From: a phage
Reading direction: 5' to 3' (one strand)
Sequence record: NC_104726.1
DNA length: 64,000 nucleotides
In this document: positions 58,442-63,055 of the stretch, in pieces
How the letters are laid out: every line of letters begins with the position of its first letter
Position numbering within the stretch: the stretch's first letter is position 1
Translations under genes and position numbers: made by a program
Notes under the pieces: model-generated
What the model saw: only the letters and a program-made list of their open reading frames with translations
Told to the model about the DNA's origin: nothing
The model's database searches: none

Positions 58442-58900
58442 TCAACACTTTTTATACTCTACTACAACCACATCAATATCTGCAGTTGCAAGATTAATTA
58501 CATCTTCTACGTGTTCCCACTTTAGACCGCCAATACCGCATCCGATTTTAGGAATGTAGAACGGCAATGACACACCTTTGAATACCTCGTTGACTCGCTC
58601 AAAACCTTTCATTATTGAGAAGTATTCAGCATTGGGCCCTGGGTAGAACTGGGTATACAGGTTGATTCCATATACGACCCTGTTCTTGGCAAAATGCTCC
58701 CAACAAGAAAACATACCCAGCTTGTCCAGATTACCATAGGCAGTCTCTTTGTCGGCTGCCAGTGCTTGAGGGAACTCACGGGCAATATCTTTCGCTATGC
58801 CTGCACCCATTGTATGAAAGCAGTTACAACCGTGGATCAGGTGACCAGCACCGCTCTTAAAAAGGGAGATTAAATCTCCACCTACAGTATCAATAATCAC
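58442..58900 (-). CDS. Macro-domain protein (ADP-ribose binding/processing)
   Basis: Macro signatures HGCNCFHTMGAGIAKDI and IPKIGCGIGGL (compare N-x-x-G-G-G-V and G-x-G-x-x-G blocks). Confidence 0.7.
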   Translation of the reverse strand: MIIDTVGGDLISLFKSGAGHLIHGCNCFHTMGAGIAKDIAREFPQALAADKETAYGNLDKLGMFSCWEHFAKNRVVYGINLYTQFYPGPNAEYFSIMKGFERVNEVFKGVSLPFYIPKIGCGIGGLKWEHVEDVINLATADIDVVVVEYKKC

Positions 58901-60094: not shown

Positions 60095-60156
60095 TTTTCA
60101 GATCTCCTTATACAAAAATGCCCCACCCTTTCGGGCAGGGCTATGTTAACTAGGTG

Positions 60157-60780
60157 CTAAAAGTATTCGTAGAGGTATCCATCGGGGGCTGGAATTTTTT
60201 CATGAATGTAGTAATCAACACATATTCCGGTTTCTCTTCTACAAGAATTGTGGGATACCCATTCTTTAAGAACGTTTCCATTCATGTCCAGCCTCCTTAC
60301 ATTTTTACACCGTCTACCGCTGGTGCTTCTATGCAATAGAATATCCTCCGTCTGCTTGTCTTTATTTTCTCCCCAGGTCGTTAAACGGATATTATCAAAA
60401 GAGTACCCTTTGAAATCATCTATCCTGTCACAAGAAGGCTTTTTCCTTTTGTCGTATCCGCTGGCTACCCACTGATCATACAACTCTTTGTAACCGTTCA
60501 GGTATAGCCACTCCTTAAACTCTTTTTTGGTGTAAGTCGGAGGCGGGTGACCTCTTTGCTTGCTGTTGCACTTTTGAGCCTTGTACAGCACGCGTATTAC
60601 ACCTTTTTCTGAAGAGTCGTGGGAAAATTGGTCAGCCTCCCTGCTGGCCTTCTTGCAACACTCTTTGCACTTATTAAGATGACCGTCAGACATCTTTGGG
60701 TGTTTGTAGAACTCGGAGAGGTTTTTCACCTCTCCGCACTTGATGCACCTCTTACAATGCGTGGATTCTACTTTTGCCAT
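60157..60780 (-). CDS. putative homing endonuclease-like protein (zinc finger plus degenerate HNH-like block)
   Basis: N-terminal CKRCIKCG...C-x-x-C zinc finger; [23 protein letters not shown] resembles an HNH_3-type core with substitutions; start at internal ATG (MAKVESTHC). Confidence 0.45.
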
Positions 60781-62023
60781 ATTGCAAACCCACCGGAGCG
60801 AAAGGTATGTCATCACAGAACTCATACTGTGCTGGATTCTGATCCATTGGGTCATCTTCCTCATCATTTACAGGAGGAGCGTCTACAGTGTTTTGCTGTG
60901 GAGCTGCTTCCTGTTTGGCAGCCTGAGGTTCTTGATGGTCAGTGGACTCAGCACCGTTCTTGATCCAATCGTACAACGGCTCAGCCAGATTAGTCAAGAC
61001 ATCTTTTGCTTCTGCAGTAATTGCCGCTGCAAAATCATCAACTTTCGTTTTCTTGTCAATACGGCGACAAGCGTTCAACACCGCATTACCGACACTGGCA
61101 CCTACTTCATCTTCAGTTCGGTTGGTGGCTTGAGCATACTCTTTCTTAAGCTCAATAGTGACTACGTGTAGTGTTTTAGCCACTCCTAGTGGGTCGTCTA
61201 CCTTAAACCCGCGATCCAGGATGATTTGCAACGCATTGATGCTATGCCCCGTTTCCACACCGATAGGGTCGTAAGAGGATTTACGCTTGCCACCAGAGCC
61301 TTGAGTACCGTTCTCTGCCTTAGGAGGATAGGCTTTGAAACCACTGATAATGTTTCCGGTGTCTTTGTCAACAATGGCTGCAACACGACCACCTACCACC
61401 AGGTCTTTAAGCTGCTCATCAGTTACAACCATAGCACCTTCGCCAATCTTGTGGTCATTAACAGTAACCACGTTGCCAACAATCTGAGTCACATCACCAT
61501 AGATGCGTAAAACGTCCTGATTGGCATTCTGCTGAGGTTTCTGCTTCTGGCCTTGTGATTGTGCACCTTGTTGCTGTTTTTGCTGCTGAGTCGCTGCTGG
61601 AGCCTCTCCTGCACCCAGCTTAACCATCTTAGCCAGTGAGCCTTTGTAGTAGGTCTTACCGTTATGCTCGTTTGCCTTCAAAGGGATATTTACGATCCAT
61701 CCTGGCGTTACGGTTTCCCACTTGTCATCAATTTTAACAGAGACAGAGTCTTGATGACCCGGTTTAAGCAGCTTATCGCCCATACTGATCCAAACTTCTT
61801 CACCACCTTGAAGTAGGTTATCAGAGGAATCCAGTTCAGAAATCAGTAAAGAGATGGTGTGGCTGGACTCAATTTTCTTACCTTGCCACACAGTGGTTTT
61901 AATACCTGTTGTAGGATCAGCACCTTTGATAGGCTTGATGCTGACGCGTTTAATCATGCCGTGAGCCAGTAAAACAGTTTCACGCGGATTCATCGGGTTA
62001 GCGAATTGTTGAATAACGCTCAT
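60752..62023 (-). CDS. putative single-stranded DNA-binding protein (OB-fold N-domain, Gln-rich linker, acidic tail with DDIPF)
   Basis: Acidic C-terminal region [21 protein letters not shown] resembling the SSB tip motif DDDIPF, followed by 16 extra residues that overlap the next gene. Confidence 0.45.
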
Positions 62024-62734: not shown

Positions 62735-63055
62735 TTAATCGTCAAGTTCAAAATAGATTTTAACAGCTTCATCAAAGATTGGAATCCCGATGTTGTTGAT
62801 AAGCTGCCAAACTACCATATCTTTACCTGGGTCTGGGAGAATGTCAACCTTTCTCCATGCGCTGTATATCCAGTTTGGACCACCTTCTGCACTAACTGGC
62901 AGATTTTCACCAGCCTCCTGCAGATACTTATACAGCAAAAGATATTCTGGATACTCTAGAACACTGTCCTCTGTAGTATATAGCAGTTCACGGTATACTT
63001 TTAAGAACCCTGCTGGGGTGATGTTTTCAGTCTTCATTTGCTGCTTCTCCTGCAT
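62735..63055 (-). CDS. hypothetical protein (106 aa)
   Basis: ORF. Confidence 0.5.
   Translation of the reverse strand: MQEKQQMKTENITPAGFLKVYRELLYTTEDSVLEYPEYLLLYKYLQEAGENLPVSAEGGPNWIYSAWRKVDILPDPGKDMVVWQLINNIGIPIFDEAVKIYFELDD

What the first reader, a model, noticed from the sequence alone, without database searches (positions are those of the whole stretch)
60157..62023. SSB-like gene whose acidic DDIPF tail is followed by 16 extra codons overlapping an HNH-like endonuclease gene
ORF 60752-62023 ends ...[41 protein letters not shown] is the canonical SSB C-terminal tip, normally the last residues, yet here translation continues 16 codons into the start of the downstream zinc-finger/HNH-like gene (start about 60780). 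This looks like a homing-endonuclease gene inserted at the 3' end of an SSB gene, displacing the ancestral stop, which would alter or mask the SSB interaction tail.
Basis: inference. Interest (0 to 1): 0.5.

Follow-up and report, generated by a model that had tools for sequence, protein, structure and literature searches.

The report
SSB-like tail cap plus homing endonuclease
In this rV5-like coliphage, a movable nuclease gene sits right after a DNA-binding protein gene, and with it comes a conserved 15-residue "cap" that buries the protein's normally terminal docking motif; the same cap occurs on about 200 other phage replication proteins and I found no description of it.

Summary
ORF 60752-62023 (-) encodes 423 aa ending ...EFCDDIPF+[15 protein letters not shown], and the next gene's ATG (60780) lies inside that extension.

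The window is an rV5-like Vequintavirus. The protein is the orthologue of Bas52_0087, an OB-fold SSB-like protein reported to trigger DRT10. The downstream gene is a PacI/I-HmuI-like zinc-binding HNH nuclease.

The nuclease behaves like a free-standing homing endonuclease gene (HEG):
- It is absent from about half of the close relatives, whose protein stops right after FDDDIPF.
- Decayed and deleted copies exist.
- Sequence differences pile up at the junction.

The extension is not accidental read-through:
- The same peptide, AP[IV]GLQY[GA]xxx[IL][HY]x[LI], follows DDIPF in about 200 phage genomes, on canonical SSBs, SSB-like proteins and primase-helicases.
- Most of these have no nuclease gene nearby.
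- Its codons vary mainly at third positions, which indicates purifying selection.

In the opposite direction, relatives of the nuclease, found using nuclease peptides only, almost always lie directly after genes ending in an acidic ...PF tip (59 of 61 loci).

Best reading: the HEG cassette carried the cap with it. The cap codons supply its ribosome-binding site and ATG. What the cap does is inferred only; it removes the free Phe carboxylate that host SSB partners bind.

The parts
60752..62023 (-). SSB-like gene (423 aa incl. cap; rV5 gp209 / Bas52_0087 orthologue, phrog_4477)
   Evidence: (phrog_4477 E 1.3e-173; the profile ends at aa 408)
61601..62023 (-). N-terminal OB-fold-like beta domain (aa 1-141)
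61316..61516 (-). Second small beta-barrel domain (aa 170-236), flanked by Q-rich disordered linkers
   Evidence: the preprint describes two OB folds in the orthologue
60950..61276 (-). Four-helix domain (aa 250-358) holding D252 and Y351, the DRT10-escape positions reported for the orthologue
60800..60820 (-). SSB-Ct-like tip FCDDIPF (aa 402-408); relatives without the nuclease gene have FDDDIPF followed by a stop
60755..60799 (-). 15-codon cap [15 protein letters not shown]. It also contains the nuclease gene's ATG (60780-60778) and a GGTGGG Shine-Dalgarno-like stretch
60157..60780 (-). Free-standing homing-endonuclease-like gene (207 aa; rV5 gp208; phrog_1035 'endonuclease VII')
60658..60756 (-). 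N-terminal Cys4 zinc-binding module (invariant C12, C15, C38, C41), the part shared with all relatives parked behind SSB tips
   Evidence: aligns with PacI residues 1-41
60361..60438 (-). PacI-like beta-beta-alpha-metal motif [25 protein letters not shown] (invariant P115, S116, R119, Y126, N139). Arg stands where I-HmuI has the His of its DH dipeptide
60160..60309 (-). C-terminal region that aligns with the C-terminal half of I-HmuI (probable DNA-binding part)
   Evidence: I-HmuI 1u3e residues 74-171, E 0.004; some homologues carry PF22083/PF07453 hits, accessions as listed
60120..60141 (-). Intrinsic terminator. It follows the SSB-like gene directly in relatives without the nuclease gene, and follows the nuclease gene here

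Best explanation
The window comes from an rV5-like Vequintavirus.

Gene 60752-62023 encodes an OB-fold SSB-like replication/recombination protein, the orthologue of Bas52_0087. Its disordered acidic tail carries the gamma-proteobacterial SSB C-terminal tip (DDIPF).

Directly behind it sits a promoter-less, free-standing homing-endonuclease cassette. It encodes a PacI-like zinc-binding HNH nuclease whose C-terminal half resembles that of I-HmuI. The cassette is inserted between the gene and its terminator, so it would be co-transcribed with the SSB-like gene and its translation coupled to it.

The 15 extra residues are not junk. They are a widespread, selected C-terminal 'cap' module of phage SSBs. 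In this lineage the cap travels with the endonuclease gene because the cap codons hold that gene's ribosome-binding site and start codon. Gene conversion during homing (inferred) therefore installs tip variant, cap and nuclease together.

At the protein level the cap turns the tip from a C-terminal into an internal motif. That removes the free Phe alpha-carboxylate that host SSB-interacting proteins use, so it should change which partners the tail recruits (inferred, not shown).

Shown: the anatomy, the polymorphism, the conservation and selection on the cap, and the folds.
Inferred: nuclease activity and homing, the direction of the indel, and the functional effect of the cap.
For: Identity and fold:
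- The window is 97-98% identical to rV5-like phages.
- phrog_4477 matches at E 1e-173, and the profile ends at the tip Phe.
- The orthologue Bas52_0087 (phage MZ501102, which lacks the nuclease gene) was reported as SSB-like with FDDDIPF and as a DRT10 trigger. D252 and Y351 are present here.

Nuclease-gene polymorphism:
- Junction counts among phage records: 26 capped with nuclease gene, 18 DDSIPF* with nuclease gene, 52 naked without nuclease gene.
- V18 has a nuclease ORF with no start.
- L055 keeps the cap plus 5' and 3' remnants of a deleted nuclease gene.
- Mismatches against Murica are 9 in the first 50 nt left and 4 in the first 50 nt right of the junction, against about 0-1 per 50 nt further out.

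Cap as a real module:
- 208 phage records match at least 80% of a 25-aa tip+cap query.
- The cap is present without any nuclease gene in mEp235, g341c, phi92 and Vibrio phages and in 35 of 38 IMG/VR contigs.
- Entropy by codon position in the SSB frame is 0.52/0.50/1.40 for caps overlapped by the nuclease ORF and 0.85/0.68/1.56 for the others.
- Against a canonical SSB (L036), the window cap differs at 6 synonymous and 1 non-synonymous codons.
- GAP31 against SalP219 differs at 7 synonymous and 1 non-synonymous codons (read).

Nuclease family:
- Profile hits to I-HmuI (E 0.004) and PacI (E 0.008); top Foldseek hit is PacI, probability 0.97.
- Relatives found with nuclease-derived patterns only: 50 of 61 upstream ORFs end in a strict acidic-PF tip and 9 more end in PF.
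- These upstream ORFs fall into 22 BLAST clusters, including PF00436 SSB, a weak gp32-like hit, three PHROG SSB families and DnaB-like/primase-helicases.
Against: - No cleavage or homing has been shown for this nuclease. It has Arg where I-HmuI has the His of its DH dipeptide. PacI has the same DR, but whether this family is catalytically active is untested.
- The direction of the 640-bp indel cannot be read from the junction. TT(T/C) microhomology at both ends fits either insertion or precise deletion.
- Deeper relatives such as phi92 and Kashira carry a cap without a nuclease gene, so the cap could be ancestral.
- Capped and naked phages are both viable isolates on E. coli K-12, so the cap's effect may be small in this phage.
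- AF2 gives no structure for the tail (pLDDT <50 for residues 360-423).
- No partner was identified.
Confidence: 0.7

Rival explanations
1. One reading: the nuclease gene landed on the stop codon, and the 15 residues are meaningless read-through into its 5' end.
For: Within Vequintavirus, the cap was seen only together with the nuclease gene or with its remnant. The extension overlaps the nuclease ORF's start by 29 nt.
Against: The same peptide is conserved on unrelated proteins in Vibrio, Salmonella, Klebsiella and Escherichia phages, mostly with no nuclease gene. Variation is at third positions of the SSB frame, while the nuclease-frame residues before the first Cys are not conserved ([24 protein letters not shown]). 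The nom-type allele keeps an ordinary stop.
Confidence: 0.04
2. The cap is ancestral in this SSB-like family. The nuclease gene inserted behind an already capped gene, and the naked alleles without it arose by precise deletion of cap plus nuclease gene through TTY microhomology.
For: Many distant family members (26-44% identity) are capped, and phi92 has no nuclease gene next to its capped gene. L055 shows that deletions of the nuclease gene do occur. Removing the 640-nt segment that HEG-less relatives lack (window about 60163-60802, boundaries ambiguous by TTY microhomology) would join CCT to TTT TAG and recreate ...PF* (read).
Against: The one observed deletion left the cap intact. Naked alleles carry their own tip-coding haplotype (GTC TTT GAT GAT GAC ATC CCA TTT against GAG TTC TGT GAT GAC ATA CCT TTC), so they are not recent derivatives of the capped allele. 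In the sister clade at 64-82% identity, the commonest ending among listed homologues is naked AFDDDIPF*, and one checked contig has no nuclease gene.
Confidence: 0.18
3. The zinc-binding HNH protein is not selfish. It is a functional partner nuclease of SSB, for example one recruited by or regulating the tip, and is kept next to SSB genes by co-expression.
For: The adjacency holds across 22 BLAST clusters of upstream genes. Start and stop overlap, which implies coupled translation.
Against: The gene is present or absent among >95%-identical viable phages. Start-less, truncated or deleted copies occur (V18, L055, L081, L092, L095, L097). Other HNH families occupy the same helicase/polymerase junction in Ro1 and K54_rec5. 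The nuclease's C-terminal half resembles that of the homing enzyme I-HmuI.
Confidence: 0.12
4. On cap function: the cap is a C-terminal degradation tag that sets the protein's lifetime, rather than a mask or partner-binding motif. From my own memory, it loosely resembles ClpX-type signals: basic residues followed by small-then-aliphatic residues at the C-terminus, as in MuA ...RRKKAI and ssrA ...YALAA.
For: All cap flavours end in a hydrophobic residue, usually after a small one...IHAL...IYAL...IHAI...MHVI...LMCM...LNCM. The cap is portable between unrelated phage proteins, which points to a host-encoded reader.
Against: This is pure motif resemblance with no test here. The invariant AP[IV]GLQY part, and the strict retention of DDDIPF immediately before it, are not explained by a degron.
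Confidence: 0.1

Closest known systems
Bas52_0087 of phage RudolfGeigy (bioRxiv 10.64898/2026.04.29.721553)
   Same: Orthologous protein from the same phage group. The preprint reports two predicted OB folds, a disordered C-terminus with FDDDIPF, and D252 and Y351; both residues are present here.
   Different: Bas52 has the naked 408-aa allele with no nuclease gene (H76). The window has FCDDIPF plus the 15-aa cap and the nuclease gene. The preprint passages I read do not mention capped alleles.
E. coli SSB C-terminal tip (SSB-Ct, ...MDFDDDIPF)
   Same: Same hexapeptide at the end of a disordered acidic tail behind an OB fold.
   Different: No PF00436 match. Three-domain, 423-aa architecture. 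Here the tip is internal. From established SSB-Ct structural work (my own knowledge), partners bind the terminal Phe side chain together with its free carboxylate.
T4 segG next to gene 32 (free-standing GIY-YIG homing endonuclease; review PMC2988022)
   Same: A free-standing, promoter-less homing endonuclease gene beside a phage SSB gene. It cleaves the SSB gene of a phage that lacks it and co-converts flanking markers.
   Different: A different nuclease class (GIY-YIG against PacI-like HNH). Not described there as a family tied to SSB tails, and it adds nothing to the SSB protein.
I-HmuI (PDB 1u3e) and PacI (PDB 3ldy)
   Same: Profile hits at E 0.004 and 0.008. The PacI-like N-terminal Cys4 motif and the VDRxDxxxGYSxxNxRL motif match, and the C-terminal half aligns with I-HmuI.
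   Different: Low identity (about 22%). I-HmuI is intron-encoded and has DH where this family has DR. PacI is a restriction enzyme with no I-HmuI-like C-terminal half.
T7 gp2.5 and gp4 acidic C-terminal tails
   Same: An SSB and a primase-helicase in one phage group share the same kind of tail. Here, Vequintavirinae SSB-like proteins and Seunavirus primase-helicases share both tip and cap. For T7 gp2.5, the tail and its terminal Phe are described as needed for binding the polymerase.
   Different: In T7 the terminal Phe is the last residue. Here up to 15 residues follow it.

Membership tests
Bacterial-type SSB (PF00436) | Sequence match to the SSB family profile | tested here: not met
   No Pfam hit at E<=1 apart from a chance DCX2 match
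Bacterial-type SSB (PF00436) | OB fold of the ssDNA-binding type | tested here: met
Bacterial-type SSB (PF00436) | Disordered linker ending in an acidic ...DDIPF tip as the very last residues | tested here: not met
   The tip is present (aa 402-408) but 15 residues follow it. Relatives without the nuclease gene do meet this feature
Bacterial-type SSB (PF00436) | ssDNA binding and oligomerisation | not testable with these tools
   Needs EMSA and SEC
phrog_4477 / rV5 gp209 / Bas52_0087 family | Full-length profile match and synteny | tested here: met
   E 1.3e-173 over aa 1-408; same neighbouring genes in rV5, Murica and FV3
Free-standing homing endonuclease gene | Presence/absence at one exact site among otherwise near-identical genomes | tested here: met
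   26 + 18 records with it against 52 without; 640-bp indel
Free-standing homing endonuclease gene | Sequence differences clustered at the insertion or target site (co-conversion or immunity) | tested here: met
   9 and 4 mismatches in the first 50 nt on either side, about 0-1 per 50 nt beyond
Free-standing homing endonuclease gene | Degenerate or deleted copies (gain-decay-loss cycle) | tested here: met
   V18 lacks the start; L055 holds a deletion scar; several truncated copies in IMG/VR
Free-standing homing endonuclease gene | Site-specific cleavage of the allele lacking the gene, and super-Mendelian inheritance | not testable with these tools
   Needs enzyme assays and phage crosses
HNH / beta-beta-alpha-metal nucleases | Catalytic motif and fold | tested here: inconclusive
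   Profile and fold hits to I-HmuI and PacI, but no Pfam HNH hit. Arg stands where I-HmuI has the His of its DH dipeptide, and PacI also has DR
Phage SSB 'cap' module (defined here) | AP[IV]GLQY[GA]xxx[IL][HY]x[LI]-COOH immediately after the ...PF tip | tested here: met
   [15 protein letters not shown]; 14 of 15 residues identical to the cap of a canonical SSB in L036
Phage SSB 'cap' module (defined here) | Purifying selection in the SSB reading frame, and occurrence independent of the nuclease gene | tested here: met
   Third-position entropy is 2-3 times that of positions 1 and 2; 35 of 38 contigs lack the nuclease gene

The most novel reading that the evidence does not exclude
Two linked ideas.

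(1) This PacI-like zinc-binding HNH family uses the DNA that encodes SSB C-terminal tips as its homing or landing site. That is the one short stretch shared by otherwise unrelated SSB and helicase genes, so it would let the element jump between non-homologous replication genes.

(2) The 15-residue cap is a portable switch that converts the universal SSB tip from a C-terminal to an internal motif. This would re-target host-factor recruitment, or change how defence systems that respond to phage SSB-like proteins (such as DRT10) see them.
Probability: 0.3. Interest if true: 0.8.

Novelty: new variant of a known kind. Interest (0 to 1): 0.6.

Why it matters
The SSB C-terminal tip is a central protein-interaction hub of bacterial DNA metabolism, and its terminal Phe is taken to have to be the last residue. 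Hundreds of phage SSBs, SSB-like proteins and primase-helicases carry a selected 15-residue peptide after that Phe, so phages have a second, undescribed state of this hub.

Closely related rV5-like phages in the BASEL collection differ in the cap and the nuclease gene at this locus. EmilHeitz, MaxBurger and DrSchubert are capped; RudolfGeigy/Bas52, CarlMeissner and JeffSchatz are naked. They are ready-made material for testing what the cap does, including for DRT10 sensing of this very protein.

Separately, a homing-endonuclease family that is nearly always parked behind tip-encoding gene ends suggests a way for a selfish element to move between unrelated genes. It may also offer a nuclease with a useful, predictable target.

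Tried and rejected
- Pfam on both proteins gave nothing useful.
- Single-sequence PDB search with the nuclease gave only weak hits; the profile search was needed.
- Literature string searches (DDIPF, IPFAP, GLQY+SSB, homing endonuclease+ssb) found no description of the cap or of the nuclease-SSB association. The library is limited, so this is not proof of novelty.
The exhaustive search with 33 aa returned one hit. Both queries were too short to measure how common the cap is.
- A GC-rich hairpin inside the zinc-module codons looked conserved when sequences were folded singly. RNAalifold found no consensus pairs because the stems are out of register, so it is not claimed.
- The idea that the non-canonical tip haplotype DDSIPF is strictly linked to the nuclease gene was rejected: L134 has DDSIPF* without it.
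- The idea that caps are generally associated with any kind of endonuclease gene was rejected. By eye, the genes downstream of caps that lack the zinc-binding HNH gene look like methyltransferases, RdgC-like proteins, exonucleases or small ORFs (not checked against family profiles).
- No paralogue of the nuclease or of the SSB-like gene occurs elsewhere in the window.
- The DRT10 preprint text gives no per-phage values that would compare capped with naked BASEL phages.
Full report
**1. Observation**

ORF 60752-62023 on the minus strand encodes 423 aa ending ...[26 protein letters not shown].
- The tip FCDDIPF is aa 402-408 (60820-60800).
- Fifteen sense codons and TAA follow it.
- A second ORF in another frame starts at ATG 60780 ([17 protein letters not shown]...) and ends at 60157. 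The overlap is 29 nt.

This is the only such tail in the window.

**2. Where the window comes from**

The region is 97-98% identical to rV5-like coliphages of the genus Vequintavirus. The two genes are rV5 gp209 (hypothetical protein) and gp208 (endonuclease).

**3. The SSB-like protein**

- Pfam finds nothing. PHROG 4477 (unknown function) matches at E 1.3e-173, and the profile ends exactly at residue 408, the tip Phe.
- An AlphaFold2 model built on 45 homologues (mean pLDDT 73.6) shows four parts:
  - a beta domain at residues 1-141;
  - a small beta barrel at 170-236;
  - a four-helix domain at 250-358;
  - a disordered tail at 360-423.
- A 2026 preprint identified the orthologue in phage RudolfGeigy (Bas52_0087, MZ501102) as SSB-like, ending in FDDDIPF, and as the phage factor needed to trigger the DRT10 reverse-transcriptase defence. 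Its escape substitutions, D252V and Y351C, fall on residues that are present here.
- The protein therefore works like an SSB but is not a PF00436 member.

**4. The downstream gene**

- PHROG 1035 ("endonuclease VII") matches at E 4e-41.
- 198 homologues share invariant C12, C15, C38 and C41, and a motif PSxDRxDDxKGYSxDNxRLxTWxEN.
- A profile of the family hits the homing enzyme I-HmuI at E 0.004, covering the HNH motif and the C-terminal half. It hits the restriction enzyme PacI at E 0.008, covering both the N-terminal Cys4 motif and the DR motif.
- The AF2 model (pLDDT 91.7) has PacI as its best Foldseek match, probability 0.97.
- Arg stands where I-HmuI has the His of its DH dipeptide. PacI has the same DR. 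Catalytic competence is plausible but untested.

**5. The nuclease gene as a mobile element**

A 121-nt junction query was matched over at least 80% of its length in the following numbers of phage records:

| Junction type | Records |
|---|---|
| Capped, with nuclease gene (the window's type) | 26 |
| ...EFDDSIPF* followed 8 nt later by a variant nuclease gene ("nom" type) | 18 |
| Naked ...FDDDIPF*, no nuclease gene | 52 |

- The indel is 640 bp.
- In relatives without the nuclease gene, the stop is followed within about 15 nt by the terminator. In the window that terminator sits after the nuclease gene, at 60141-60120. The cassette therefore lies between the gene and its terminator.
- Phage V18 has a nuclease ORF that has lost its start.
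- A relative at 83-84% identity (L055) keeps the cap but has only about 22 bp of the 5' end and about 40 bp of the 3' end of the nuclease gene.
- Mismatches between the window and Murica cluster at the junction: 9 in the first 50 nt on the left and 4 in the first 50 nt on the right, against about 0-1 per 50 nt beyond.
- Alleles with the nuclease gene carry non-canonical tips: FCDDIPF, DDSIPF, DESIPF and EDVPF. The link is not strict, because L134 and L056 have such tips without the gene.
- Together these are the usual signatures of a free-standing homing endonuclease gene, as reviewed for T4, where segG sits beside gene 32 and cleaves it.

**6. The extension is a conserved module**

This changes the interpretation.

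- Weak DNA hits from the junction region led to Seunavirus phages. Their primase-helicase ends ...DFDNDTPFAPIGLQYANHAIYAL*, again overlapped by a related zinc-binding HNH gene.
- A 25-aa tip+cap query finds 232 phage records by tblastn, 208 of them covering at least 80% of the query. Hosts include Escherichia, Vibrio, Klebsiella, Salmonella, Aeromonas and Proteus.
- Capped proteins with no nuclease gene nearby:
  - the canonical SSBs of mEp235 and g341c (...[21 protein letters not shown]; the next gene is an exonuclease);
  - a Vibrio phage SSB (...[15 protein letters not shown]);
  - phi92 gp156, a homologue of the window protein (...APIGLQYGRNFLHCF*; the next gene is a methyltransferase).
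- Capped proteins with an overlapping nuclease gene: the SSBs of ECH1 and morffagbaw.
- A degenerate-DNA scan of IMG/VR for DIPFAP[IV]GLQY gave 38 contigs, and only 3 have this nuclease downstream. Five of the 38 have under 800 nt of downstream sequence. By eye, the other downstream genes look like methyltransferases, RdgC-like proteins or small ORFs (not checked against profiles).
- Within the window protein's own family, about half of the 72 homologues are capped and half are naked, at every level of divergence.
- In 185,579 species-representative bacterial genomes, the pattern occurs only 8 times, in SSB genes on contigs of mostly marine or enteric gamma-proteobacteria. The cap thus appears almost entirely confined to phage sequences.

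**7. Selection on the cap**

| Set of unique cap DNAs | Codon position 1 | Position 2 | Position 3 |
|---|---|---|---|
| 11 caps overlapped by the nuclease ORF | 0.52 | 0.50 | 1.40 |
| 31 caps with no nuclease gene | 0.85 | 0.68 | 1.56 |

Values are mean entropy in bits, by position in the SSB frame.

- The window cap differs from that of a canonical 160-aa SSB (L036) at 6 synonymous and 1 non-synonymous codons, with 37 of 45 nt identical.
- GAP31 against SalP219 differs at 7 synonymous and 1 non-synonymous codons (read).
- In the nuclease frame, the residues before the first Cys are not conserved.
- In L036, the same ATG inside ...LQYG... starts an unrelated 97-aa ORF, MEKAESTHY....
- So the peptide is what is selected, and downstream genes, the nuclease gene included, borrow their start from the cap codons. 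In the window the candidates are GGTGGG 8 nt upstream of the ATG. In L053 they are GGGAGG followed by an ATG in ...TATGCC... (read).
- In every capped locus with the nuclease gene, the SSB stop lies inside the codons for [C/Y]-K (V-K in L049) just before CxKCG.

**8. The converse test**

- Loci were fetched from IMG/VR using peptide patterns from the nuclease only, giving 66 loci.
- 61 of them have an ORF of at least 60 aa ending within 200 nt upstream of the zinc module. Fifty of these end in a strict acidic-PF tip and 9 more end in ...PF.
- Most tips are naked. Nine have one extra residue (PFN or PFK), two have 4-5 extra residues, and two have 15-16.
- The upstream ORFs fall into 22 BLAST clusters. 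Those annotated include PF00436 SSB, a weak gp32-like hit, PHROG SSB families 18154, 44 and 4932, phrog_4477, and DnaB-like or primase-helicases.
- In the window itself, none of 181 ORFs of at least 60 aa ends in a naked tip.
- The nuclease family is therefore tied to the tip-encoding 3' ends of otherwise unrelated genes.
- The primase-helicase shows the same polymorphism:
  - 4MG: naked, no nuclease gene;
  - Ro1: naked, with a different HNH gene;
  - K54_rec5: capped, with another HNH family;
  - GAP31 and SalP219: capped, with the zinc-binding HNH gene.

**9. Mechanism: what is shown and what is inferred**

*Shown:* the anatomy, the polymorphism, the conservation and selection on the cap, the folds, and the association between the nuclease family and tips.

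*Inferred:*
- The nuclease cuts alleles that lack it at or near the tip-stop junction and is copied in by double-strand-break repair. The linked tip haplotype and cap come in with it, because its translation signals lie in the cap codons.
- The cassette is co-transcribed with the SSB-like gene and its translation is coupled to it.
- The cap internalises the tip Phe and so alters docking of host SSB-interacting proteins. Established SSB-Ct structures use the Phe side chain and its free carboxylate (my own knowledge).
- The tip stays strictly DDDIPF in capped proteins, and the cap is portable between unrelated phage proteins. I therefore favour a composite motif read by a host factor, or a regulated mask, over simple inactivation. 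A degron is a lesser alternative.

The direction of the 640-bp indel at the root of Vequintavirus is unresolved, because TTY microhomology fits either insertion or deletion.

**10. Verdict**

The homing-endonuclease indel is an ordinary kind of event. The conserved cap after the SSB tip, and a homing-endonuclease family specialised on tip-encoding gene ends, are not described in the literature I could search. Both can be tested directly with existing BASEL phages.

Noticed in passing
window 60714-60736 (-); same position in L005, L006, L007, L014, L042, L082: A GC-rich hairpin (CGGAGAGGT-GAAAA-ACCTCTCCG) lies inside the zinc-module codons, about 20-40 nt after the SSB stop. In several relatives it is followed by the T-rich EFY/DFY codons, which could act as an embedded attenuator or terminator. 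Different sequences form stems at roughly the same place, but RNAalifold found no consensus pairs because the registers differ.
   Followed up: partly
L123 (Ro1), L125 (K54_rec5), L005/L006 (SalP219, GAP31), L124 (4MG): The junction between primase-helicase and DNA polymerase in Seunavirus and Mydovirus is occupied by three different HNH gene families, or by none. It appears to be a hot spot for endonuclease genes, with the helicase tail either naked (DFDNDTPF*) or capped.
   Followed up: partly
L036 and L040 (IMG/VR contigs): A canonical 160-aa SSB carries the cap [16 protein letters not shown]. An unrelated, conserved 97-aa ORF starts at the same ATG inside ...LQYG... that the window's nuclease gene uses. 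Its first residues (MEKAESTH) mirror the nuclease's MAKVESTH.
   Followed up: partly
L063, L075, L078, L090, L091, L093, L102, L104, L108; L007 (ECOO78): Many SSB genes that sit next to this nuclease family end ...DDIPFN* or ...DDIPFK*, with one residue after the tip Phe. This could be a minimal version of the same junction alteration. Its frequency among SSBs without the nuclease gene was not measured.
   Followed up: no
window 58442-58900 (-): A 152-aa ORF with a Macro domain hit (PF01661, 25.9 bits against a cutoff of 22), about 1.3 kb downstream of the nuclease gene in the same gene string. The next-but-two upstream ORF, 62735-63055, is DUF7238.
   Followed up: partly
Phage database records MG0656xx: Sixteen GenBank records named 'Campylobacter phage' (host C. 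jejuni) are 95-98% identical to rV5-like coliphages over this locus. They carry all three junction types. The naming or host assignment looks doubtful.
   Followed up: no
P0005 (395 aa homologue): One homologue ends ...DFCDDIPF with nothing after it. That is the capped allele's tip haplotype without the cap, so it may be a secondary loss of the cap or a truncated gene call.
   Followed up: no
L136 (contig encoding P0034): A third arrangement occurs in a relative at 58% identity. A naked ...WDWDESIPF* tail is followed by a 242-aa member of the same nuclease family with an N-terminal extension; the called gene overlaps the end of the SSB-like gene.
   Followed up: partly
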